Positions 1,456 to 28,777 of a stretch of DNA of 64,000 nt are shown piece after piece. Made by a program: the position numbers and the translations under genes. The notes under the pieces are model-generated. The model was not told the DNA's origin. It saw nothing but the letters and a program-made list of their open reading frames with translations, and searched no databases. This stretch comes from Ostreococcus lucimarinus (lineage: Eukaryota), in NCBI GenBank assembly GCA_000092065.1, contig CP000590.1; one strand, given 5' to 3'. The first letter of the stretch is position 1, and every line of letters begins with the position of its first letter.

Positions 1456-3078
1456 CTAAAAACATTTTTCGAGCTCGTCGTCGCCTATTTCGTCAAACGT
1501 TGGGGCGGCAAGCTCTTTGTCGTCTATCTCGTCAAAAGTCGGGGGCTTGTACAGCAACTTCAACAGTTCATGCGACTCATCCAATACATCTTTACTCAAT
1601 TTGTGCCACGCACCTCGGATACCACGGCAGTCGGGATCGTGGCATCTCTGATAGTACGCGTCCTCGCGGAAATCGATGACGAACATCACATTGTTGCTCT
1701 TGTGCGCTCGTTCGATGTTTTCGCAAAACCGATTCCCAAACAGATTGAGGATTAACACACCATACTCTGGAAACGCCTTCCACGAGCGCACGGCCGCACC
1801 GCCGTGACCGCTCCAGCGATCAAAGTCTTTGCAAACGAACGAAGCCGTGCGAGGACAAGGTCCGATTGCGTTGCCGTTGAACTCAGACGCGGTGCGCGCT
1901 AGGTGAGACCCGGTTCGATATCCTTGGAATGCTTGTCCGCGCAATACCGAAGTATGCGTGACGCCTTCGAATCGAATCACTTTGGCTTCCAAAATCAAAC
2001 ACGTCGCTGACACCAGCGATCGTTTGAAAGTTTCAAAACTTACTTCAGATTTACTCTTCCAAAATCGTCCGGTAGTCTTCAGAATCGGTTTATTCGTCTC
2101 TTCGCTGTGCTTGTTCGACAAGTAGAGGCGAAACACTCGATTTCGGGTGTACACACCAAGATCGATGAACGGCTCGGTCTTTTCGACGTCGTCTCTCTCT
2201 TTGCGTAAGAACATCGCGTCGCATCGGTCGTCCTCGCCGCGCCGCGACTCTACGGTGTGCCAAAGTTTTCTGACAAAGTGCGCACAATGCGAATTGTCGG
2301 CAAAGACTTGATCATCAGGAAGTTGTATGATCAAGTGACGACTGAACTTGGTCTCGCTTTCGCTATCGAGCTCGACGATGTGCTCCAGCTCATCAAACTT
2401 GGACGTGTCTATCTCCGGCGTCGCCTTCAGCTCCTCTACGATGAGCTGAACCAACCAATCCATCATTCGCACGCCGTCGACGTCTGGGTTTGAAACCTTG
2501 GAAAACTCAACGTCAAAGTACAAATGACAATGGGTATCTTCTCGCATGAGTTCGTAATAGTGGCGCTCCTTCAGACTTTCGTAATATTTCCAAAACGTGC
2601 GCAAGTCTTTCGGGCCGAGCATTCGAACCCCGACGTATTGTCGAAGCCCGCCTTTCTCTTCTAATTGGCGGCAAAAGTACATGTAGGGCTCTTGCACATC
2701 TTCCGAAAGTCTCCTTTGATCCACAGCTTCGAACAATTCTTGCTGCCTGTAACTTTTGATCCAGAATCGGTCTGGTTGCTTGCTCTCTCTTTCGTCCTCT
2801 TCTCGCACGACTCGCTTGCGCCTTTTCCTCGTGTCTTCCTCCTCTTTCTTTCGTTTCGTGTCTTCTCCGTCGTAGAAACTGCTGGGATCATACGGTCTTA
2901 TCGCGTCGAAATCTATGGATGTACGCGCTTTCGTGTTCTCGTCCTTCTTCGGAGGCGAAAGCCGTGGATCGTATATTTCTCGCATCTGCCGTCGTTCGTA
3001 AACCGTTGCGTCGCGGTCAGTCGCCGTCGCGTGTGAAATCGCACGAGTATGTAGACCAATTATGGCTCGATACGCCAT
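1456..3078 (-). CDS. PRIMPOL: Primase-polymerase PrimPol (archaeo-eukaryotic primase with a UL52-like zinc finger)
   Basis: HYYELMREDTHCHLYFDVEFSK matches the PrimPol motif I region (human ...CKLYFDLEFNK). The C-terminal CHDPDCRG...H pattern is a UL52-type zinc finger. On the minus strand a TGTAA lies about 25 nt past the stop. Confidence 0.75.
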   Translation of the reverse strand: MAYRAIIGLHTRAISHATATDRDATVYERRQMREIYDPRLSPPKKDENTKARTSIDFDAIRPYDPSSFYDGEDTKRKKEEEDTRKRRKRVVREEDERESKQPDRFWIKSYRQQELFEAVDQRRLSEDVQEPYMYFCRQLEEKGGLRQYVGVRMLGPKDLRTFWKYYESLKERHYYELMREDTHCHLYFDVEFSKVSNPDVDGVRMMDWLVQLIVEELKATPEIDTSKFDELEHIVELDSESETKFSRHLIIQLPDDQVFADNSHCAHFVRKLWHTVESRRGEDDRCDAMFLRKERDDVEKTEPFIDLGVYTRNRVFRLYLSNKHSEETNKPILKTTGRFWKSKSEVSFETFKRSLVSATCLILEAKVIRFEGVTHTSVLRGQAFQGYRTGSHLARTASEFNGNAIGPCPRTASFVCKDFDRWSGHGGAAVRSWKAFPEYGVLILNLFGNRFCENIERAHKSNNVMFVIDFREDAYYQRCHDPDCRGIRGAWHKLSKDVLDESHELLKLLYKPPTFDEIDDKELAAPTFDEIGDDELEKCF

Positions 3079-4045: not shown

Positions 4046-5746
4046 ATGGGTGGCGGCGGCGAAGCGAAAAAGGCGAAAAAGGAAAAGCGCGCGAAGCGCG
4101 ACGGCGACGACGGCGAAAGGAAGAAGAAGGCGAAGAAGAGTAAAAAGACCGACGCGGGAGCGGGCGATGCGGACGATTCGAGCGGGCGCGAAACGCGCGA
4201 GGAGGAGGCGGTGGAGAGAATCGAAGCGCCGGTGGATGGAATACTGAGCGAGACGACGTTCGAGTCGCTCGAGTTGAGCGCGCCGACGATGAAAGGGATC
4301 GAACAGATGGGATTTAAGACGATGACCGAGGTACAAGCGCGGTGTGTGCCGCCGTTGCTGGCCGGGAAGGATGTGTTGGGGGCGGCGCGGACGGGGAGCG
4401 GAAAGACGCTGGCGTTTTTGGTGCCGAGCGTGGAGTTGTTGTACCACGCAAAGTTCATGCCGAGAAATGGGACGGGAGTGATGGTGCTGTCGCCCACGCG
4501 TGAATTGGCGCTGCAGATTTACAACGTCGCGCAACAGCTGATGGAGAAGCACTCGCAGACGCACGGATTAATCATCGGAGGCGCGAATCGACGCGCCGAA
4601 GCCGAACGCTTGATCAAGGGCGTCAACTTGCTCGTCGCCACGCCTGGACGGTTGCTGGATCACATGCAGAACACTCGTGGATTCACGTTTAGCTCGCTCA
4701 AGGTGTTTGTCATGGACGAAGCCGATCGCATGCTCGATATCGGGTTCGAGGAGGAGATGCGAACCATCGTGAAAATGTTGCCAAAGGAGCGGCAGACGAT
4801 GCTGTTTAGCGCGACGCAAACCACAAAGGTTGAAGATTTGGCGCGCTTGTCGTTGAAGAGTCCGATTTACATCGGCGTTGACGACTCGCGCGCGGTGTCC
4901 ACCGCCACGGGCGTCGAGCAAGGGTACTGCGTCGTCCCGAGCGAGCAAAGGTTTTTGCTCTTGTTTACGTTTTTGAAGAAGAACTTGAAGAAGAAAATTA
5001 TGGTTTTCTTTTCGTCGTGTAACTCGGTCAAGTATCACGCCGAATTGTTGAATTATATCGACATTCCCGTGAGCGACATTCACGGCAAGCAAAAGCAACA
5101 GCGAAGAACGACGACGTTCTTTGAGTTTTGCAAAGCCGACCGCGGCGTTTTGTTGTGCACCGACGTCGCGGCGAGAGGCTTGGACATCCCCGCGGTGGAT
5201 TGGATCATTCAGTACGATCCTCCAGACGACCCAAAGGAGTACATTCATCGCGTCGGGCGCACGGCGCGAGGGACGGACGGAAAAGGACGCGCATTGCTCT
5301 TCTTGATTCCAGAAGAGTTGTCGTTTTTAAAGTATCTCAAGTCGGCGAAGGTGCCGCTCAACGAGTACGAGTTCCCGACGAAAAAAATCGCCAACGTGCA
5401 GAGTCAGTTGGAGAAACTGGTGGAGAAAAATTATTACTTGCACACCAGCGCGCGCGACGCCTATCGAGCGTACATTCTGGCCTACAACTCGCACACGCTC
5501 AAGGATGTGTACAACGTGCACGCGCTCGACCTCAACGCCGTGGCGAGCTCGTTCGGTTTCCACAAACCTCCCAAGGTCCAACTCAACCTGGACTCCAAGG
5601 CGAGCAAAGGGCGCACGAAATCACGAGGCGACGGCGGTCCGGGAAGCGATTACCGTCGCCAGAAAGGCACCGGTCACAATTTTAGCGCGGAAAATCCATA
5701 CGGTAAAAAGGATTCGAGCGATTCGCGTCAATTCGTACGCATGTAG
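4046..5746 (+). CDS. HAS1: DEAD-box ATP-dependent RNA helicase of the HAS1/DDX18 type. The track ORF starts at 3389 but its first 219 codons are Arg-rich GC-shadow; the first plausible ATG is 4046 ([18 protein letters not shown]...)
   Basis: Q-motif region [36 protein letters not shown]; motifs [33 protein letters not shown]...RGLDIP...HRVGRTAR. The lysine-rich N-terminus is typical of Has1/DDX18. Confidence 0.9.
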
Positions 5747-6240
5747 TAGCCCGCGTATCACTAGCGATCAAAGACACCAATCACTCAGTATTCATCACTC
5801 TCGTTTTACAAACTCACTTATCCATCGGTTCCAGCACGACGGGCGTCGCGCTCCCCTCTCGCGGCCACGCCTTCATGCGCGCCTTCGTCGCGTCTTCCCA
5901 CTCCTTCGTCATCGTCGACGGCAACGGATCGCCTGCTCGCGCGCGCGCGCGCCCATCGTCAGTCCCCACCCCCTCCCGCGCGCTCGCGTCGATCGACCCT
6001 CCGCGCGCGCTCGCGCGCGTCCGTTCGCCCGTTCGTAGGGTCGCGCCTCGACCCCCCTCGATCGCGCGCGCGCGCCCGTTCGCGTCGCCCTCGCCGCGTC
6101 GCGCACCTCCGAACACTTTCGCGACGTTCACGGCGTAATACGTCACCCCCGCCGCGCCGCACAGCGCCGCCGTGGCGCTCGCCACCTGCGCGATCGACGC
6201 GCTCGTCATGGCGCGGCGTCGCGGTGTGGCGTCGCGCGCG

Positions 6241-6433
6241 GCGTCGTGATCGACTCGTCACGTATTTAAGGACTCTTCTTGGGTCGCGAACGGTCGATCG
6301 TCGTCGCGGCGTCGTGCTCGAGTCGTCACGTATTTAAGGACTCTTCTTGGGTCGCGAACGGTCGATCGTCGTCGCGGCGTCGTGATCGAGTCGTCACGTA
6401 TTTAAGGACTCTTCTTGGGTCGCGAACGGTCGA
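6241..6433. repeat. 68-bp tandem repeat, about 2.8 copies; unit starts at 6241, 6309 and 6377
   Basis: Unit gcgtcgtgatcgaStcgtcacgtatttaaggactcttcttgggtcgcgaacggtcgatcgtcgtcgcg repeats with only 2 mismatches between copies. Each copy carries TCACGTA (ACGT core) and TATTTAAGG (TATA-like). The array lies 270-460 bp upstream of the DNA2 ATG. Confidence 0.9.
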
Positions 6434-6700
6434 ATTCAAAGCCCGCGACGACAGACGCGGCGTCGCGCGGCGTCGCGGCGCATCGCGACGCGCGCGAGCG
6501 GACGCGCGCGAACGCGCGAGCGCGCGACGCGCGACGCGCGCGTCGTCGTCCCGACGCGTCGAGAGCGCGGCGCGAGCGACGACGCGCGACGACGACGCGA
6601 CGCGAGGGGCGACGACGGGACGACGAGACGAGACGAGACCACGACGACGCCGACGACGCCGACGACGACGCGCGAGCGCTCGACGAGGGAAGGGAGCGAA

Positions 6701-9700
6701 ATGAGCGGGAAGAAACGCGCGCGGGGCGGGCGGCGGGTGACGGTGGACGCGGAGGTGGAGACGTCGCAGCGGGAGCGGGTGACGTACGGGGCGCCGAGCG
6801 GGACGACGACGACGACGACGACGGCGACGGCGACGACGACGACGGAGGCGAATGGGAGCGCGCGGCACGGTGATAGCGCGGCGATGGAACGATTGTTCGC
6901 GTTAGGCGCGGGAACGGTCGCGGGGGGGGGCGAAAACGATGCTGATGATGGATTAGGGGTGTGGTTGAGCGAGAGCGAATTCGGCGGCGGCGGCGGCGGC
7001 GCGAGGGGGAAGTCGAACGCGGTGGGCGCGAACGGCGAGCGTGGGAGGCTTTCCGTGCCCGTGGCGCCGGCGTGGGAAGAATCATCGGCGGAGAAGTCAC
7101 CGGGGGGGCGGAGACGACGGGCGAGCCGCGATGGCGAGGAGCGAAGACGATCGGAGGATTTGTTTGAGGAATTGTTGACAAACGTCGAGCGCGGCGCGCC
7201 GGCGCGAGACTCCGCGCCGGCGACGATGGAAGTCGCGACGACGACGACGGCGTCCGCGGTGAATACACGCAAAGAAGGTGACCACACGCTTGCGCTGGCG
7301 TCGATGGATCCCGATTGGAACGACGAGGATGAGGATAGTCAGGCGCTCATCGACGCCGTGACGCTCGCGGAGAAGCGCGCCAAGATGGCAAAGTCGGCTT
7401 CTGCGACGACGACGCAAGCGAGTAACGCCGTGCCTTCGCTGAGCGATATAACCCTAGACGATGGCGATGACGACGACGACTTATTCGCCGCCGCGGTGGA
7501 TATGGCTGAAAAAGCGCGCGACAGTCGCGTTGAGTCCGGAACGCCGTCCACGGCGACTTCCCCTAGGAAATCGCCTAGGAAATCCGCCGCGGTCGCGGCT
7601 TGCGCGCGCACGCAATCGGCGACTGCGCGAGTTAAAATTGAAGATGGCTTTATGGAAGATTGCAAGGCGGAGTTGCAGAAAGCGTTGGAATTCGCGAGAG
7701 AAGAAGCGGAGGCAGAGACTGAAATTCTAGGCACCTGGTTCGTCGAAAGCGTCGCGTCGCCGCGGATTGGCTGCGTCGAATCCCTCGTCCTGACGAAGGC
7801 TAGCGGTGCAAAGAAGACTGTCGTGCTGAAGGGTTATTGGCGAGAAACCCTGGTTTCAGTGGGAGATTCTCTGATCTTGTACTGTTTGCCCGGCGTGGCG
7901 CGCAAAGAAGACGTCGCGAAGGATATTGTCGAAGTCACTGACGATGGAGGGGTGATGATTATTCTTTTCCCGGCGTACTTGATAAGTGCGACGACGATAG
8001 GGAATGGTATGGACTGCCCTCGACAATCAGTGTTGCAGCAACAACTGCAGACGACGTGGGGTGACGCGAACGAGGCGGCGACGATCGGTACTATTATGCA
8101 CGATCTCGTTGAGCACGCGCTCCTCGTCGGATCGAGCCGAGCACTCGTGCCGATGGCTTCCAAGGTGAAGAGCGTGATCGAAAGCAACGTGGACAATATA
8201 TTCGCCATCGATTCAACCGAAAAGAAGCTGCAGCAAAGAATAGATGCGACCATTCCAGGTGTGGAATCATGGGCTAACAAGCTCACGGCGGCGTCTCGTG
8301 TGCCAAAGCTTGGTCGCGCGAAGCCCGGCGGCAACGCCCAGGTGCGAATGAACAGAAAAGCTGCGCACGATAAGCTTCGAAGAAAGTGCACTGTGGGCGT
8401 CGAGGCAAGCTTGGATTACAATACGTCTGCAACGTTGCAAGTTGACGACATGATTGACATAGAAGAACTCATTTGGGCTCCAAAACTTGGATTAAAAGGC
8501 ATCTTGGACGGCGTCGCAAACGCCGTCATACGTCAATCGAAGGAAGATTTACCATTGCCGAGCGTCGTTCCGATCGAGTTGAAGACGGGTAAGTGGAAGT
8601 CTGTCGGTCACGACGCACAAGTCTTGTTTTATAATCTTATGATCGGCGAACGCTACGGCAAAGTGTCTCCTTTCGGCGTATTGCACTACACCACGGACGA
8701 TAATGACGACGAAGGCACGAGTAAAATTTTCACGAATAAGCCGGCTAACATCAGCGCTCTGATGCAGCGTCGGAATCACCTTGCGGCAATGTTAAGACCG
8801 ACGCCCGAAGAAGCGATGCAACACAACGCTCCAGTCCCGCACGGCAAGGCCCGTCTCGGGAACGGTAAGCTGCCGAAGATGCAGCCACAAAGCTGGTGTG
8901 AGCGTTGCTTCTCACAGCACGAGTGTTTCAGCTTGCATCGCGCGCTCGAGGGAGGAGACGGCGAAACAAGCGAGCTCGGCAATTTGTTCATCGGCGCCAC
9001 CTCGCATCTGAACCAGACTCACGAAACAGCAATCCGTCACTGGATTCATCTGATTGATTTGGAATCTTCCGAGTCTTTGCGCAAGCGTGCAACTCCGTGG
9101 CTTCCGGTTGAACTCGTCAATCGTCGCGCGAGCGACACGTACGCGATCGACGACCTCGCTTTTGTTCGTGAAAGCACGCAAGAGAAGTCTGCATTCGTCG
9201 GTGATAATCACTATTACATATTCAAACCCTCAAGTTCTGTCGCAGAAAGCGTTCTGAAGAGAGTTGGGATCGCCGATCGCGTCGTCTTGAGTCGCGACAA
9301 AGGCTTGACGGTGATTTCTCGCGCACAAATCATTCGCATCTCAAATGATTCTGGCGAGGTCGTCATCGAAATGGCTACAGAACGACCATTACGCCGGGAT
9401 ACCGCAAATAATGCGATGGCACCGTTACCGGGATCGTCCGAAGAGAGCGCGCTATGGAGAATCGATAAAGACGGGGCTTCTCTCACCATGGCCGCGAGGA
9501 CTCGTGGAAACGTTCTCGCGTTGTTTACCCAAACAGAACGCGCCGCTATCATTCGTCGACGCATCATCGATTTGGAGCGACCCAAGTTCGCTCCAATTGG
9601 TGACCATAAGAGGAAAATCGAAGTCGCACTCAAAGATCTCGGCTTCCCTTTGAACGACGAGCAGCTTTTGGCAGTCGAAAAGATCGTTACGGCTGAAGAT

Positions 9701-10948
9701 TACGTCCTCGTGCAGGGCTTTCCGGGTGCCGGCAAAACAGCCATGCTCGTCGCCGCCGTGAAAGCTCTTCGAGCGCAAGGAAAATCGGTGTTGATCACGT
9801 CCCACACGCACAGCGCCATCGATAACGTCTTCTCTAGGCTTCCAGGAGTTGGAGTTCACGAGTTTATGCGCATCGGCGACGAAGTGAAAGTCGTCGACGC
9901 CGTGCAAGAATACAGGCTTGGATCAAAGCGATGGCCGTGCTCGAATTCGGATGACTTGCGTAAGGTATCAGAGCGCGCTATGGTCGTCGGTGCAACGTGC
10001 CACGCCATGGGTCACGCGTATTTCCAGCGTAAAATGTTTGACGTTGTTCTCATCGATGAGTCGGGGCAGATTACGCTTCCGAGCATTCTCCCTCCGCTCT
10101 TTGCGGCAAAGACGTTCGTGCTCGTCGGCGATCACCATCAGCTCCCGCCGCTCGTGAAGTCAAAACAGGCAATTGCCGGTGGACTTGGTCGATCTCTTCT
10201 TGCCATGCTGTGTGACGCACATCCAGACATGGTGACGAAATTGTCTTCGCAGTACCGCATGGCAGAGCCGCTGACTCGATTACCAAACATTTTGACGTAC
10301 GACGGAAAGTTGCGCTGTGGTACGGAGTCGGTCGCGAAACAGTTACTTTCGCTCGCGCCTCTCAAAGATGCTTTCTCCTGCGCTCCGCAGTGGTTAGCGC
10401 ACGTCATGAATCCCGCGAATCACACCGTTTTCTTGGATACGAGCGCGCTCGGCGCCGCGGCGCGCGAAACGCCTAAGCCGTATATTAATGAGGCAGAGAT
10501 GGACTTGGTGCTGACGACAGTCAGTGCGCTCACAACTCACGGCGCCACGAGTGTGTGCGCATTATCACCATTTAACGCCCAGGTCGACGCCATCAAAGCT
10601 CGCTTGAACGGATTCAAAGCGCTCAGCGGCGACGACGCGCCTCGAGCGCTCACAATTGACAAAGCGCAAGGCCAGGATATGGACGCGGTGTGCATCTCCT
10701 TCGTCTGTTCGAACGATGAAGCCAAGGTGAACGTTTTGCTGAATGACACCAGTCGCTTTAACGTTGCGATCACGCGTGCAAAGAAAAAGCTGATCCTCAT
10801 CGGTAACGCCGAAACGTTGCGATCCTCTCCGGTGCTCGCGCGAGCGCTCGAATTTTATCGCGCCGAGGGGTGGATCGTGCCGCTCACCATCGAAGCGCTG
10901 GATTTCACGAACTTCGTCCTCGGGACGTTCGAACCGAGCGTTCTCTAG
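6701..10948 (+). CDS. DNA2: DNA replication ATP-dependent nuclease/helicase DNA2
   Basis: Nuclease domain with Fe-S cysteines (CPRQSVLQ... and CERCFSQHEC) and PD-(D/E)XK motifs (IMHDLVEH, VVPIELKTGKW). SF1 helicase motifs GFPGAGKT, VVLIDESGQ and VLVGDHHQLPP. Long disordered N-terminus. Confidence 0.85.
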   Translation: MSGKKRARGGRRVTVDAEVETSQRERVTYGAPSGTTTTTTTATATTTTEANGSARHGDSAAMERLFALGAGTVAGGGENDADDGLGVWLSESEFGGGGGGARGKSNAVGANGERGRLSVPVAPAWEESSAEKSPGGRRRRASRDGEERRRSEDLFEELLTNVERGAPARDSAPATMEVATTTTASAVNTRKEGDHTLALASMDPDWNDEDEDSQALIDAVTLAEKRAKMAKSASATTTQASNAVPSLSDITLDDGDDDDDLFAAAVDMAEKARDSRVESGTPSTATSPRKSPRKSAAVAACARTQSATARVKIEDGFMEDCKAELQKALEFAREEAEAETEILGTWFVESVASPRIGCVESLVLTKASGAKKTVVLKGYWRETLVSVGDSLILYCLPGVARKEDVAKDIVEVTDDGGVMIILFPAYLISATTIGNGMDCPRQSVLQQQLQTTWGDANEAATIGTIMHDLVEHALLVGSSRALVPMASKVKSVIESNVDNIFAIDSTEKKLQQRIDATIPGVESWANKLTAASRVPKLGRAKPGGNAQVRMNRKAAHDKLRRKCTVGVEASLDYNTSATLQVDDMIDIEELIWAPKLGLKGILDGVANAVIRQSKEDLPLPSVVPIELKTGKWKSVGHDAQVLFYNLMIGERYGKVSPFGVLHYTTDDNDDEGTSKIFTNKPANISALMQRRNHLAAMLRPTPEEAMQHNAPVPHGKARLGNGKLPKMQPQSWCERCFSQHECFSLHRALEGGDGETSELGNLFIGATSHLNQTHETAIRHWIHLIDLESSESLRKRATPWLPVELVNRRASDTYAIDDLAFVRESTQEKSAFVGDNHYYIFKPSSSVAESVLKRVGIADRVVLSRDKGLTVISRAQIIRISNDSGEVVIEMATERPLRRDTANNAMAPLPGSSEESALWRIDKDGASLTMAARTRGNVLALFTQTERAAIIRRRIIDLERPKFAPIGDHKRKIEVALKDLGFPLNDEQLLAVEKIVTAEDYVLVQGFPGAGKTAMLVAAVKALRAQGKSVLITSHTHSAIDNVFSRLPGVGVHEFMRIGDEVKVVDAVQEYRLGSKRWPCSNSDDLRKVSERAMVVGATCHAMGHAYFQRKMFDVVLIDESGQITLPSILPPLFAAKTFVLVGDHHQLPPLVKSKQAIAGGLGRSLLAMLCDAHPDMVTKLSSQYRMAEPLTRLPNILTYDGKLRCGTESVAKQLLSLAPLKDAFSCAPQWLAHVMNPANHTVFLDTSALGAAARETPKPYINEAEMDLVLTTVSALTTHGATSVCALSPFNAQVDAIKARLNGFKALSGDDAPRALTIDKAQGQDMDAVCISFVCSNDEAKVNVLLNDTSRFNVAITRAKKKLILIGNAETLRSSPVLARALEFYRAEGWIVPLTIEALDFTNFVLGTFEPSVL

Positions 10949-24454: not shown

Positions 24455-27163
24455 ATGTCGAGCCTCGTCCGCGCGCTGTCGCGACGCGTCAGTCGCGCGG
24501 CGCGCGAGGCCGCGGACGCCCCCGAAGACGCGCCCGCGCCCTCGGCGCCGCCGTTGAGCGCCGAAAGCGCCGACTCGGCGAACGACCACCTGACACCGTC
24601 GCCCGCGCAAGAAATGACGAAAACCGCCGCCGCCGACGGCGACGCGGCGTCGAGCGACGCGGAAGAGACCGCGCTCGACGCCGGCGAGGTTATTCTCGAG
24701 CGAGACGACGCCAGGGTGCCGGTGCTGCTGAAGCAAACGTCGTCGACGCTGCTGCCTCGCGACGAGGCGAAGAGGCTCGAACGAATGTTGTCGACGGATG
24801 TGCGGGACATGATGGCGAAGGAGGTGTGGGCGTGTCGACCGTCGACGTTCATCAGACTCACGATGCGGGCGCCGGTGCTGATGATGATTTTGTCGATTAT
24901 TTTTTGGGTGGCGGCGGGCGCGTACGCGCTGGTGCGGAAACCGCCAAAGGTGGAGACGGATGTCGCGGGATTTAGCATTCGCGATCATCCCACGGCGAGG
25001 CTTAAGGATGCGATTTGGAGCGCGGAGAGTGAGTCGGAGTTTAATTGGGACGCCATGTTGACCGCGGGTGGGTCGGCGAGCGTGGGGACGATTCCGTACG
25101 TGACGAGTTGGCTCGATTCGGGTGGATATTTGACGTCGCCTTCGGCGGTGCGAAAGATGCGTCGATTGCAATCGTACGTCGCGACAGAAAGACCGAGCTC
25201 ATATAGTTCGTTTCAGCTCGTTTACACGTCCACGCGTGGGGAGAATGTGTTACGCGAGGAGGTGATGAAATTCGCGTTGGATTTGGAGGGCAAAATTACG
25301 CGACTCCCGGGCTACGCAGAGACGATGTGCTTGCAGATCGCAGACACGGAGTATTTAGGCTCGAACGGATGCACGCCGCCAAATTCCATAGCACCTTTAT
25401 TCTTCGCGACGACGGTGAGCGGGACTTACTACAGAAATACCGTCGATGTCACCATGAGTTTGGCGTCGAGGGGGTTGTATGTCTACGTCGACAAGGATTT
25501 CGACGCCGCGAACGGCACCGCGTCGTCGTTTAGAACGAGCTTTCCAATCGGTCAGCCTAGTAAGGCAGTGTGGAAAAAGTGGATGAAGAGCACTCTAGTT
25601 CCGTTTTTACGAGCAAACACGAGAGATGAGGCAAAAGGCATTCGATGTCTCTATGGGGGCAAAGAAATCACCCAGTATGAAGCCGATTTGGCAATCTTGC
25701 ACGACGCGAAACTCATCATTGCCGGCTTGTCGCTCGTGGTCGTGTACACATACTTTCACACCGGCTCTGTTTTCATCACGTTTGCGGGAATATTTGAAAT
25801 TATTCTATCTTTTCCCGTCGCGTACGCGTTTTACGCATACGTTTTGAAGTTGGAGTCGATTAGCGTGATGCAGTTTTTGGCGATTTTCATCATACTCGGC
25901 ATCGGCGTCGACGACGTCTTTGTATTTTACGATTCTTTCGAGGATGCTTCGCGCGCCGTGGGGATACGCGGTGACACCCTCGAAGCACGATTAAATTATG
26001 CTTATGATCACGCTGGAAGAGCGATGCTGGTGACTTCGATGACTTCAGGCGCGGCATTCGCCGCAAACCTCGCCTCCGCCATTCCGGCGGTGCAAATATT
26101 TGGTGTCTTTATCGCTGTGATGGTTTTGGTAAATTACTTCCTCGTCATCACCTGGTTTCCCGCATGTTTGTGCGCGTACGAGCGATACTGGCGAGTTTCC
26201 AAAGATTTCAACTATTGTGGCCTCGGAGGCTTGCGTACGAAGCACCTCCCTTCCGCTGAAATGGATGCTCGCGCGGCGCAACGCGCCGAATCTTGTTTGA
26301 GCTGCATCAAGCGTGTCGCTTGCTTTGGTCAAAAGTTGAACCAATATCAAAACGTCATGGCAGCGCAAAAGAAGAAACGTTCGATCTTTACATGGAGAAC
26401 TTACGGTGCATACTTGGATGTTTTCAAGTACATCTTGCTCGTCATTTGCCTCGGATCGATGGCAGTGACTGGATATTTCTCAACCAAGACGGAGGCGAGC
26501 GGGCAACCGCCAGAGCTGTTTCCGGCAGACTCGAATCAGCAAATGTTCATCAAGTGGACGGAATCGCAATTCGAGAGCGATAAATTCGCCTGCACGAGCT
26601 TTGCGCACTGTCAGCAACAGGCTGGGACTGTGCTACAGCAAAACGGTGTGACGCTGTCGCCGCCGCCACCGTCGCCGTCTCCTCCTCCTCCTCCCAGGTC
26701 GCAAGTCGGAACCATCACTTCTCCAGAGATTGATCAATTAGCAGACGTAGTATTCAATACTTTCGACAGCGACGCGAATGGTTGGCTGGACACGACGGAG
26801 TATGACTCTTTCGCAGCGGCGGTAACGACGACGACGAGCCTACCACCCGCGAACACCGTGATGAGCGCGTACGGCACGCCGCAAGGTGTCACAAAACCGG
26901 GATTTGTTCTCGCCCTGGATACAGCTGCTGGCGTAAACGACGCACCGGTACTAGATGCGTATTCGCTCCTCGTCTTAGGCACAGCAAGATCGAGCCCTCC
27001 TCCACCAAGTCCACCGCCGTCACCCCCGCCTTCGCCGCCGTCACCGCCGCCACCCCCGCCTTCGCCGCCGTCACCGCCGCCGCCGCCGTCACCGCCGCCA
27101 CCCCCGCCTTCGCCGCCGTCACCGCCGCCGCCGCCGTCGCCGCCACCGAGTTCCAATCCATCA

Positions 27164-27195
<32 letters not shown>

Positions 27196-28777
27196 GTCAC
27201 CGCCGCCGCCGCCGTCACCGCCGCCGTCACCGCCGCCGTCGCCGCCGCCGCCGCCGTCACCGCCACCGTCGCCACCGCCGCCGGAGGCGCTCCAAGCTGC
27301 CGAGCGCGTCGCGGGGACGAATTACGAAAAGGCGCAACTCGTGTGGGGCATCGAAGATATTCAAGACGATTCTGCGCCATATGCTCCGCGAGAGGTTGAC
27401 GCTAATCCGGTGGTCAACCCCGCGTTTAACATCGGCGACCCCACGACTCAAGTCCGCATGTTGAAGTTCTGCGAAGCGTTGCAAAACAGAACGGACCTCG
27501 CGAGTTCGTTTAAGGAGTGCCCGATGCAGATTCTCAAAAACGTTGGAACGACGCTTTCATACCCTTGGCCGATGAGCTCGGCGCAAATCTTAAGTGTCAT
27601 CACGTCCATCGCGACGCAGAATCCCGGGTACAGAAAAATCTACGGCTTACAGACGGTGACGTCGGGCGGCGCCTCCACCCAACGCGTCGCTTGGGTCAAG
27701 GCGAACTTCTTGTCGGGGATTCCATTTCGAATGTCGGCGACGAAGCTTGAACAAGAATATTTCAAGTTTCTCGATTTCATCGCCGAGTTTGAAGCAACAA
27801 CGTTTCAGTACTCCGCGACGAATGCGAACGGGTCGGTGACGCTCCATTCCGCCCCTCCCACGGCGTCGGCGACAGTGAGAGTGACCTCCGAGTGTTGGGT
27901 GCGCATGGCAACGGAGCTGCAAGCCATTCGAGGCACGGTGAGCTCGATCGCAGTGTCCCTCGCGTTTGCCGTTTTCGCCACGCTCATTTTCACCGGCGAC
28001 GTCTTTGTGGCTCTCATGGCGCTGCTGAGCATGCTCGCCATCATCCTCGCCGTCATCGCGATTCTAGTCGCGCTCAAGGTGAAGTTTGGCATCGTCGAAG
28101 CGATTTCGCTCACAATTCTCGTCGGCATCTCTGTCGACTTCAGCTTGCACTTGGCCGAGTCGTTCACGCGCTCACACTTCACGAGTCGCGGCTTGCGCGG
28201 CGTCGACGCGGTCTCGCGCGTCGGTTATCCGATTTTCTCCGCCGCGATGACGACCATGTCCGCCGTCATACCGATGCTTTGGTGTCAAGTCCAAGTTCTC
28301 GTGCGCTTCGGACAAATCATTCCTCTGTGCATCGTGATGTCGTTGGTGTACGGCGTACACTTCTTCCTCCCGATGCTCATGTCGTTCGGGCCCAACGTTC
28401 CCGGCGGCGGCGCCGGAAAATGGTTGTGCCACATGGGAAAGCTTCCCGGCTTGCTCTTCAGCACGCAAACTCGCCGCATGATTTTCCTCGTCGCCTCCGG
28501 CATGATCTTCGGCTTTTTGCTCCCCGCCACGCGCGCGCTCCTGTACGAGGACGGCGGCTCCGCCTTCGCCGTCGTCGCCGGCGGCTTCGCCTTCCTCTCC
28601 GCCGTCGCCGTCTTCGTCGAGCGACGATGTCATCTCCGCGCCGTCGCCGCCGCCGACCCCTCCGCGCGGTCCCACGTCGCTCGCGCCGCTCGACTCGCCG
28701 CCGCTCGACTCGCCGTCCCCGCCCCGCGTCCGCGTCCCGTCGACGCGCGACCTTCGCCTTTGCCCTCGCGCGCGTGA
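24455..28777 (+). CDS. RND-superfamily / sterol-sensing-domain (Patched/Dispatched/NPC1-like) 12-TM transporter with an EF-hand and an extensin-like Pro/Ser-rich stretch in extracytoplasmic loop 2
   Basis: Two 5-6 TM bundles: residues about 425-570 (LGIGVDDVFVFYDSFED signature) and about 1150-1320 (ILVGISVDFSLHLAESF). Canonical EF-hand loop DSDANGWLDTTE at 26764-26799. (SPPPPP)n at 26990-27290. Confidence 0.7.

What the first reader, a model, noticed from the sequence alone, without database searches (positions are those of the whole stretch)
6241..6433. 68-bp tandem repeat (about 2.8 copies) carrying ACGT-core and TATTTAAGG boxes upstream of DNA2
There are three nearly identical units of 68 bp (2 mismatches) at 6241, 6309 and 6377. 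Each contains TCACGTA and TATTTAAGG plus a GGGTCGCGAACGG segment that loosely resembles E2F/MCB-type CGCG motifs. Tandemly multiplied promoter modules are unusual in such a compact genome. Their position 270-460 bp upstream of a replication gene suggests a multimerised cis-regulatory element, possibly cell-cycle related. The near-identity of the copies implies recent expansion or concerted evolution.
Basis: seen in the sequence. Interest (0 to 1): 0.5.

Follow-up and report, generated by a model that had tools for sequence, protein, structure and literature searches.

The report
Variable 68-bp repeat between two genes
A real 68-bp tandem repeat lies between two back-to-back genes of the tiny green alga Ostreococcus lucimarinus; its copy number differs between wild relatives and it evolves fast, so it looks like an ordinary variable minisatellite in a shared promoter/5'UTR rather than a conserved cell-cycle switch for DNA2.

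Summary
In detail: 6237-6433 holds 2.9 copies of a 68-bp unit at 97% identity, and the unit occurs nowhere else in the window.

The window is Ostreococcus lucimarinus CCE9901-type DNA. The array lies in a 491-bp divergent spacer, 28 bp from the ATG of a small two-exon DUF1138 gene on the minus strand (6209..5814) and 268 bp from the DNA2 ATG (6701).

- **Locus-specific and variable.** All six metagenome hits to a unit 21-mer are this same locus. Same-species contigs carry 1, 2, 3 or at least 3 copies.
- **Partly transcribed.** A spliced RNA-derived contig shows that at least one whole unit, with its TATTTAAGG and CACGTA, lies in the DUF1138 5'UTR.
- **Boxes not conserved.** A close sister lineage has a homologous 69-bp x 3.0 array in which TATTTAAGG is TATTCGAGG and TCACGTA is TCTCGTA in every copy.
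- **Fast, concerted evolution.** Units are 80% identical between the two lineages, against 93-98% at third codon positions, intron and flanking spacer.
- **No cell-cycle motif.** No E2F consensus lies in the spacer.

What persists across lineages is two GAsTC pentamers per unit and an ATTCAAA box just after the array.

Verdict: a promoter/5'UTR minisatellite (VNTR), a new member of a known kind, of modest interest.

The parts
6237..6304 (.). Repeat unit 1 (68 bp), proximal to DUF1138. It carries the private variant GACTCG at unit position 18.
6305..6372 (.). Repeat unit 2 (68 bp). It carries the variant GTGCTCG at unit position 13, which is also common in metagenome copies.
6373..6433 (.). Repeat unit 3, the 61-nt shared core only. 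It lacks the 7-nt junction TCGTCGT and runs straight into the ATTCAAAG box.
6258..6271 (+). TCACGTATTTAAGG: a CACGTA ACGT-core abutting a TATA-like TATTTAA. It is repeated at 6326-6339 and 6394-6407. It is not conserved in the sister lineage, which has TCTCGTATTCGAGG.
6252..6275 (.). Pair of GAsTC pentamers 19 bp apart in unit 1 (6252-6256 and 6271-6275). The same pair recurs at 6320-6324/6339-6343 and 6388-6392/6407-6411. This is a candidate factor-binding motif, and it is the only short motif whose number per unit is kept across lineages.
6434..6441 (+). ATTCAAAG box immediately after the array. TTCAAA is kept in four of the five lineages compared (L021 has TTCGAA), and the box is also present, duplicated, in the sister lineage L025/L026. 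It is a candidate initiator or core-promoter element (inference).
6210..6297 (-). The 88 nt upstream of the DUF1138 ATG that are present in the spliced transcript contig L014. This is the minimum 5'UTR and contains one whole repeat unit.
6107..6209 (-). DUF1138 gene, exon 1 (ATG at 6209-6207).
5933..6106 (-). DUF1138 intron: 174 nt, GT..AG, CG-rich and in frame.
5814..5932 (-). DUF1138 gene, exon 2 (stop codon included). The spliced product of 73 aa equals P0005, 'predicted protein [Ostreococcus lucimarinus CCE9901]'.
6442..6700 (+). CG-rich, low-complexity remainder of the spacer (probable DNA2 5'UTR/promoter). It has no ATG on the + strand and contains a length-polymorphic GACGA run at about 6617-6636.
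6701..10948 (+). DNA2 nuclease-helicase CDS (1415 aa).

Best explanation
The array is a locus-specific minisatellite (VNTR) in the 491-bp spacer shared by two divergently oriented genes of Ostreococcus lucimarinus: a small DUF1138 membrane-protein gene on the minus strand and DNA2 on the plus strand.

Origin and dynamics. A roughly 60-70-bp piece of the DUF1138-proximal promoter/5'UTR was duplicated in tandem before the present O. lucimarinus sub-lineages split. Since then it has gained and lost copies and has been homogenised. Replication slippage and unequal exchange or gene conversion are the inferred mechanisms. The outcome is that copies within a genome stay 96-100% alike while the unit as a whole drifts faster than neighbouring neutral sites.

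Relation to the genes. At least the unit nearest DUF1138 is transcribed into the DUF1138 5'UTR. No ATG occurs in the unit on either strand, so extra copies add no upstream start codons.

Likely function. The CACGTA and TATTTAAGG boxes are lineage-specific and dispensable. The array is therefore most likely nearly neutral, or at most a weak 'tuning knob'. Copy number changes two things: the number of GAsTC pentamers (two per unit), and the distance between the DUF1138 start and the conserved ATTCAAA box / DNA2 core promoter.

Shown: anatomy, locus specificity, copy-number polymorphism, homology and concerted evolution, transcription of one unit, and non-conservation of the boxes. Inferred: the mutational mechanism, near-neutrality and any effect on expression.
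For: Anatomy.

Divergent context: the DUF1138 ATG is at 6209 on the minus strand and the DNA2 ATG at 6701.

Locus specificity:
- The unit is unique in the window.
- All six JGI metagenome hits to the 21-mer TATTTAAGGASTCTTCTTGGG carry the flanks of this same locus.
- IMG/VR gave none.
- The one hit in prokaryotic genomes is a chance match with no repeat.

Copy-number polymorphism in contigs whose read-through 131-aa DUF1138 ORF is identical, or whose flanks are the same:
- 1 copy: L012.
- 2 copies: L001, L007, L008, L016, L017, L018, plus a divergent 75-bp-period form in L005.
- 3 copies: the window.
- At least 3 copies: L015 and L019.
- Five scaffolds are broken by N-gaps inside the array.

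Concerted and fast evolution:
- The sister lineage (L025/L026/L027) has a homologous 69-bp x 3.0 array at 96% internal identity.
- Unit against unit is 80% identical, plus 17 gap columns.
- For comparison: post-array spacer 95%, intron 94.8%, 3' intergenic 98.5%, third codon positions 92.6% (DNA2) and 97.5% (helicase).

Boxes not conserved: TATTCGAGG and TCTCGTA in all sister-lineage copies. A24G (TCGCGTA) occurs in 3 of 26 population units.

Transcription: the spliced Logan contig L014 has the 174-nt GT..AG intron removed and extends 88 nt 5' of the ATG, through a full unit.

No known RNA family matches the region.
Against: - Two GAsTC pentamers per unit are kept in both lineages through site turnover. 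Two of the five population polymorphisms are C<->G flips of the central base, which keep GAsTC.
- GAsTC is enriched in this spacer across five lineages, 13 observed against 4.9 expected, with 1 of 2000 shuffles reaching the observed count. This hints at selection on part of the unit.
- A third lineage (L021) has a different 49-bp x 2.6 array in the same spacer, also carrying GAsTC pairs. This could mean recurrent selection for multimerisation rather than neutrality.
- Copy numbers of 2 or more in short-read assemblies are lower bounds. Only the single-copy k141 contig and the reference are firm.
- RNA evidence is one assembled contig from one run. Its 5' end falls exactly on a unit boundary, which may be a de Bruijn graph break rather than a transcription start.
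Confidence: 0.6

Rival explanations
1. The array is a selected homotypic cluster. Each unit supplies two GAsTC sites, half-palindromes like the core of AP-1/GCN4-type TGAsTCA sites, for a dimeric transcription factor. Multimerising the unit raises or tunes transcription of DUF1138, and possibly DNA2, from the shared spacer. This is analogous to tandem enhancer repeats.
For: - GAsTC pairs are kept per unit despite turnover.
- The central-base C<->G polymorphisms preserve the motif.
- GAsTC is enriched in the spacer across five lineages with arrays collapsed: 13 against 4.9 expected, 1 of 2000 shuffles.
- Full TGAsTCA sites occur at the equivalent place in L003, L021 and L024.
- Arrays containing the motif occur in three related lineages with different periods of 68, 69 and 49 bp.
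- A GAsTC lies 37-52 bp before the ATTCAAA box in all lineages.
Against: - The motif was chosen after looking at the data.
- GAsTC and TGAsTCA are not enriched window-wide or in non-coding DNA generally.
- A natural one-copy allele exists (L012).
- The unit as a whole is the fastest-evolving segment of the region.
- No binding factor and no expression data are available.
Confidence: 0.25
2. The array is a multimerised cell-cycle promoter module of DNA2, with ACGT-core, TATA-like and E2F/MCB-like CGCG boxes acting as the functional elements.
For: - The array lies upstream of DNA2.
- In the last copy, TATTTAAGG begins 39 nt before the A of a conserved TCAAA initiator-like box.
Against: - No TTTSSCGC occurs in 6210-6700, and the unit has no ACGCGT.
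- GGGTCGCGAACGG-like words occur at chance level.
- The ACGT and TATA-like boxes are absent from every copy in the sister lineage, which keeps the array and the DNA2 gene.
- The ACGT core is lost specifically in the DNA2-proximal copy of L001, L010 and L011.
- More distant species with the same gene pair (L003, L022, L024) have no long-period array by TRF, and none has a TATA-like box within about 40 nt upstream of the TTCAAA box; L003 and L024 have none in the whole spacer.
- The array is nearer to DUF1138 and is partly transcribed with it.
Confidence: 0.08
3. The array acts at the RNA level, as a repeated structured element in the DUF1138 5'UTR or in a DNA2 upstream transcript, affecting translation or stability.
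For: - At least one unit is in the DUF1138 mRNA.
- Both strands fold somewhat better than shuffles, with z-scores of -2.9 and -2.8.
- The unit has no upstream ATG on either strand (seen in the sequence).
Against: - No Rfam match reaches a family's gathering score.
- The fold scores are similar on both strands, as expected from internal palindromes and repeat self-complementarity.
- The unit diverges by 20% plus indels between close lineages, with no covariation analysis possible.
- Copy number is variable.
Confidence: 0.04
4. The array is a copy of a dispersed repeat, MITE or satellite, or an assembly artefact.
For: None found.
Against: - The unit is unique in the window.
- All metagenome hits are the same locus.
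- There are no viral hits.
- The array is present in many independent assemblies and in RNA.
Confidence: 0.02

Closest known systems
Variable tandem repeats in promoters and 5'UTRs. Examples are yeast promoter repeats whose unit number changes expression (Vinces et al. 2009, as summarised in PMC3887541) and human promoter VNTRs such as INS-VNTR and MAOA-uVNTR (own knowledge).
   Same: Head-to-tail units of tens of bp lie in the region just upstream of genes. Copy number is polymorphic between individuals. Evolution is fast and concerted. The repeat could act as an expression tuning knob.
   Different: No effect on expression has been measured here. The repeat lies in a very short divergent spacer of a compact picoalgal genome and is partly inside a 5'UTR. 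At 68 bp the unit is longer than most yeast promoter repeats.
Tandemly duplicated enhancers such as the SV40 72-bp repeats or retroviral LTR 75-bp repeats (own knowledge).
   Same: The unit length is similar at about 70 bp. There are two to three copies next to a TATA-like box. The units carry AP-1-like or bZIP-like words.
   Different: Those elements have demonstrated enhancer activity and defined factor sites. Here activity is untested, and the most enhancer-like boxes (ACGT, TATA-like) are not conserved even in a sister lineage.
E2F (TTTSSCGC) and MCB (ACGCGT) cell-cycle promoter elements of replication genes.
   Same: The array is located upstream of a replication gene, and a CGCG-containing segment is present.
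   Different: Neither consensus is present in the unit or anywhere in the spacer (read from the sequence).

Membership tests
Minisatellite / VNTR | Head-to-tail tandem copies of a 10-100-bp unit | tested here: met
   Period 68, 2.9 copies, 97% matches, no indels.
Minisatellite / VNTR | Copy number differs between individuals or populations of the same species | tested here: met
   1, 2, 3 and at least 3 copies occur in contigs with an identical DUF1138 ORF or identical flanks. Caveat: short-read assemblies can collapse arrays. The one-copy k141 contig and the three-copy reference are the firm ends of the range.
Minisatellite / VNTR | Concerted evolution: copies are more alike within a lineage than between lineages | tested here: met
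   Identity is 96-97% within arrays and 80% between the window unit and the L025 unit.
Dispersed repeat / MITE / satellite | Copies at many unrelated loci | tested here: not met
   Unique in the 64-kb window. Six of six metagenome hits are the same locus. The complete genome could not be searched.
E2F-regulated promoter | TTTSSCGC site in the promoter | tested here: not met
   None of the 35 window matches lies in 6210-6700. The unit's closest word, GTTCGCGA, has two mismatches.
MCB (MluI cell-cycle box) promoter | ACGCGT core within the element | tested here: not met
   The unit sequence contains no ACGCGT.
TATA-box core promoter | TATAWAWR about 25-40 nt upstream of a mapped transcription start, conserved in orthologous promoters | tested here: inconclusive
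   TATTTAAG differs from the consensus at one position. It lies 39 nt before a conserved TCAAA box on the + strand. It is replaced by TATTCGAG in the sister lineage. In L003, L022 and L024 no TATA-like box lies within about 40 nt upstream of the TTCAAA box; L022 has one about 75 nt upstream. The proximal copy lies inside the DUF1138 transcript contig. No start sites have been mapped.
ACGT-core (G-box family, bZIP) element | ACGT core retained in functional copies and in orthologues | tested here: not met
   CACGTA is present in the window's three copies, but is TCGCGTA in 3 of 26 population units, TCATCGTA in L005 and TCTCGTA in all sister-lineage copies.
Tandem enhancer repeat (SV40-type) | Orientation- and distance-independent activation of transcription by the repeat | not testable with these tools
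   This needs reporter assays.
Known structured RNA family (Rfam) | Match at or above a family's gathering score | tested here: not met
   The best hits score 16-23 bits against gathering scores of 40-153.

The most novel reading that the evidence does not exclude
The DUF1138-DNA2 spacer may be a site where tandem multimerisation of a GAsTC-pair module has been favoured repeatedly. Three related Ostreococcus lineages carry arrays with periods of 68, 69 and 49 bp. Site turnover keeps two GAsTC per unit, and the central-base polymorphisms preserve the motif. On this reading the array would be a copy-number-tunable bidirectional regulatory module in one of the most compact eukaryotic genomes, acting through an as yet unidentified factor.
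Probability: 0.2. Interest if true: 0.5.

Novelty: new member of a known kind. Interest (0 to 1): 0.28.

Why it matters
If the array is simply a VNTR, its main use is practical. It is a hypervariable, locus-specific marker for distinguishing O. lucimarinus strains and populations in cultures and metagenomes. It is also a place where short-read assemblies break: five of the scaffolds examined carry N-gaps inside it.

If copy number does tune expression, it would be a natural, small and easily manipulated example of promoter tandem-repeat 'evolvability' in a picoeukaryote with very few transcription factors and very short intergenic regions. The conserved GAsTC and ATTCAAA words would then be candidate cis-elements for a group in which very few promoter elements are defined.

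The work also corrects the local annotation context. The nearest gene is a two-exon DUF1138 gene, not DNA2.

Tried and rejected
- **Sub-motif scans in the window.** TCACGTATTTAA, GGGTCGCGAACGG, TTTSSCGC and TGASTCA show no enrichment outside the array.
- **Coding versus non-coding motif densities.** GAsTC, TGACG, ACGT and TTCAAA are not promoter-enriched, but the ORF-based mask was crude.
- **Rfam scan.** Only sub-threshold noise.
- **RNA folding of both strands.** z-scores near -2.9 on both strands are attributed to the repeats' internal palindromes, not to a specific structure.
- **Viral collection scans.** Nothing found.
- **Prokaryotic genome scan.** One hit in a Planctomycetota MAG, which is a chance match without repeat or shared flanks.
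- **O. tauri orthologue (L004).** The DNA2 upstream region is not syntenic, so it gave no footprint.
- **L002.** The contig starts inside the DNA2 5' region, so there is no upstream sequence.
- **Small-word blastn between spacers.** Swamped by CG-rich low complexity. Only a few 12-mers were informative.
- **Literature.** No mapped start sites or promoter motifs for O. lucimarinus were found. The Ostreococcus footprinting paper (PMID 19693423) is not held. The DUF1138 papers are uninformative.
- **Spliced DUF1138 protein query.** It returned only one transcript contig, so no independent RNA support was available.

Full report
**1. Observation**

The repeat is real. Tandem Repeats Finder reports 6237-6433 with period 68, 2.9 copies, 97% matches, no indels and a score of 380. 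This is the top-scoring tandem repeat in the window; the others are CG-rich low complexity or coding repeats. The repeat finder gives the copies as 6237-6304, 6305-6372 and 6373-6433. A 44-nt core matches only these three sites at up to 3 mismatches, with 0 expected. TATTTAAGG occurs three times, only here, against 0.04 expected.

**2. Organism and gene context**

ORF 6701-10948 (+) is DNA2, with Pfam matches to Dna2, AAA_11 and AAA_12. Upstream lies a DDX18/HAS1-type DEAD-box helicase ending at 5746 (+).

ORF 6209..5814 matches Pfam DUF1138 weakly (30.9 bits). My spliced model is 99% identical to P0005, 'predicted protein [Ostreococcus lucimarinus CCE9901]', 73 aa. The window is therefore O. 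lucimarinus-type DNA. O. tauri DNA2 is only 52% identical.

Alignment with an RNA-derived contig fixes the gene structure:
- exon 1: 6209-6107
- intron: 174 nt, GT..AG, 6106-5933
- exon 2: 5932-5814

The array thus lies in a 491-bp divergent spacer. It begins 28 bp from the DUF1138 ATG and ends 268 bp from the DNA2 ATG.

**3. Locus specificity**

A 21-mer from the unit (TATTTAAGGASTCTTCTTGGG) found six contigs in the JGI metagenome collection. In all six the match is flanked by the DUF1138 start or by the ATTCAAAG/DNA2 side of this same locus. IMG/VR gave no hits. A degenerate 20-mer gave one hit in prokaryotic genomes, a chance match with no repeat. The complete algal genome could not be searched. 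Within what is available, the unit is not a dispersed element.

**4. Copy-number polymorphism**

Looking up the exact read-through 131-aa DUF1138 ORF returned nine further contigs of the same species. Together with L001 and the metagenome hits, the arrays are as follows:

| Copies | Sources |
|---|---|
| 1 | L012 (a k141 assembly, so every 141-mer spanning flank-unit-flank was seen in reads) |
| 2 | L001, L007, L008, L016, L017, L018 |
| 2, divergent 75-bp period | L005 |
| 3 | the window |
| at least 3 | L015, L019 (cut by the end of the contig or locus) |

Five scaffolds have N-gaps inside the array (L006, L009, L010, L011, L013), the usual sign of an unresolved variable repeat.

Among 26 complete 61-nt unit cores, five positions vary:
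- A13C
- G18C
- A24G, which turns TCACGTA into TCGCGTA; it occurs in 3 units, always the DNA2-proximal copy
- C37G
- C42A

**5. Transcription**

The spliced 73-aa protein is encoded on one Logan contig, SRR28369097_37441 (L014). That contig lacks the intron, so it derives from RNA. It extends 88 nt upstream of the ATG, to window position 6297, through one complete unit including TATTTAAGG and CACGTA.

The proximal TATA-like box is therefore inside this transcript and cannot be its TATA box. The contig ends exactly at the unit boundary. That may be a de Bruijn graph break or a true 5' end, so the start site remains unmapped. The unit has no ATG on either strand (read from the sequence), so added copies add no upstream start codons.

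**6. Comparative evidence**

A very close sister lineage is represented by L025, L026 and L027. Its third-codon-position identity to the window is 92.6% in DNA2 and 97.5% in the helicase. It has a homologous array at the same place: 69 bp x 3.0 copies at 96% identity.

In every copy of that array TATTTAAGG is TATTCGAGG and TCACGTA is TCTCGTA. Comparing the window with that lineage gives these identities:

| Segment | Identity |
|---|---|
| Repeat unit | 80% (12 mismatches in 60 aligned positions, plus 17 gap columns) |
| Post-array spacer | 95% |
| DUF1138 intron | 94.8% |
| 3' intergenic | 98.5% |

The array is therefore the fastest-evolving segment of the region, yet it stays homogeneous within each genome. 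That is concerted evolution. L005 is an intermediate haplotype.

A further lineage, L021 (helicase 95% identical), has a different array of 49 bp x 2.6 copies in the same spacer. It shares only 12-mers with the others: CGACTCGTCACG in direct orientation, and CGGTCCCATCAT in inverted orientation.

More distant species with the same gene order (L003, L022, L024) have no long-period array.

**7. What is conserved**

Across the unit types the invariant blocks are CGTCG, CGTATT, AGGACTC and GTCGCGA.CGGTCG.

Each unit has two GAsTC pentamers:
- In the window they are 19 bp apart.
- In the sister lineage one is lost and another gained 10 bp away, so the number per unit stays at two.
- Two of the five population polymorphisms are C<->G flips of the central base, which keep GAsTC.
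- Full TGAsTCA sites lie at the equivalent place in L003, L021 and L024.
- With arrays collapsed, GAsTC occurs 13 times in five lineages against 4.9 expected, and 1 of 2000 dinucleotide shuffles reaches the observed count.

The motif was chosen after inspection, and it is not enriched window-wide.

Directly after the array lies ATTCAAAG (6434-6441). TTCAAA follows a GAsTC by 37-52 bp in the window, L003, L022 and L024, and as TTCGAA in L021. It is duplicated in L025 and L026. On the plus strand it resembles an initiator (TCA+1). That reading is inference only.

**8. The E2F/MCB idea**

No TTTSSCGC lies in 6210-6700. The unit has no ACGCGT. GGGTCGCGAACGG-like words occur at chance level. S-phase genes are co-regulated in O. 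tauri (PMC2850359), but nothing links that regulation to this repeat.

**9. Interpretation**

The best-supported reading is a promoter/5'UTR minisatellite that arose before the O. lucimarinus sub-lineages split. Its copy number and sequence turn over rapidly by slippage and unequal exchange (inferred). It is nearly neutral or weakly modulatory.

The main rival (about 0.25) is that the GAsTC pairs are real factor sites and that multimerisation is selected.

Promoter and 5'UTR tandem repeats that vary in unit number are a well-known class (PMC3887541). This is a new member of that class, not a new kind of element.

Noticed in passing
window 5814-6209 (minus strand): This is a two-exon DUF1138-family gene with a 174-nt, CG-rich, in-frame GT..AG intron (6106-5933). 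Prokaryote-style gene callers read straight through the intron as a 131-aa ORF. Metagenome variants differ in intron length and sequence (P0008, P0009, P0011-P0013).
   Followed up: partly
window 6252-6411 (GAsTC pentamers at 6252, 6271, 6320, 6339, 6388, 6407): Two of the five polymorphic unit positions in 26 population copies are the central base of the two GAsTC pentamers. Both are C<->G flips that keep the motif. The sister lineage loses one GAsTC and gains another 10 bp away.
   Followed up: partly
window 6434-6441; L003 5826-5832; L022 5925-5930; L024 6035-6041; L025/L026 (duplicated): An ATTCAAA(G) box directly after the array is conserved across Mamiellales-like lineages that share the helicase-DUF1138-DNA2 gene order. 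It may be an initiator or core-promoter element.
   Followed up: partly
L021 6373-6501: A related Ostreococcus lineage has a different tandem array (49 bp x 2.6 copies, 97% identity) in the same DUF1138-DNA2 spacer. It shares only 12-mers with the O. lucimarinus units, one of them in inverted orientation.
   Followed up: partly
window about 6617-6636: The pentanucleotide GACGA run upstream of DNA2 is length-polymorphic. The window has one more unit than most metagenome contigs.
   Followed up: no
window 1456-3078 (minus strand): This 540-aa ORF carries a precomputed Pfam hit to Herpes_UL52 (primase/PrimPol-like domain). It lies next to a Cpn60_TCP1 gene in the syntenic contigs.
   Followed up: no
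L004 5140-5860 (O. tauri RCC1115, KZ155832.1): The region upstream of O. tauri DNA2 is not syntenic with O. lucimarinus. It has an AT-richer stretch of about 700 bp and an unrelated divergent ORF, which suggests a rearrangement or insertion there.
   Followed up: no
window 27011-27283: A long imperfect CCG/CCGTCA-type repeat (periods 18, 30 and 48; score up to 266), probably a proline-rich coding repeat.
   Followed up: no
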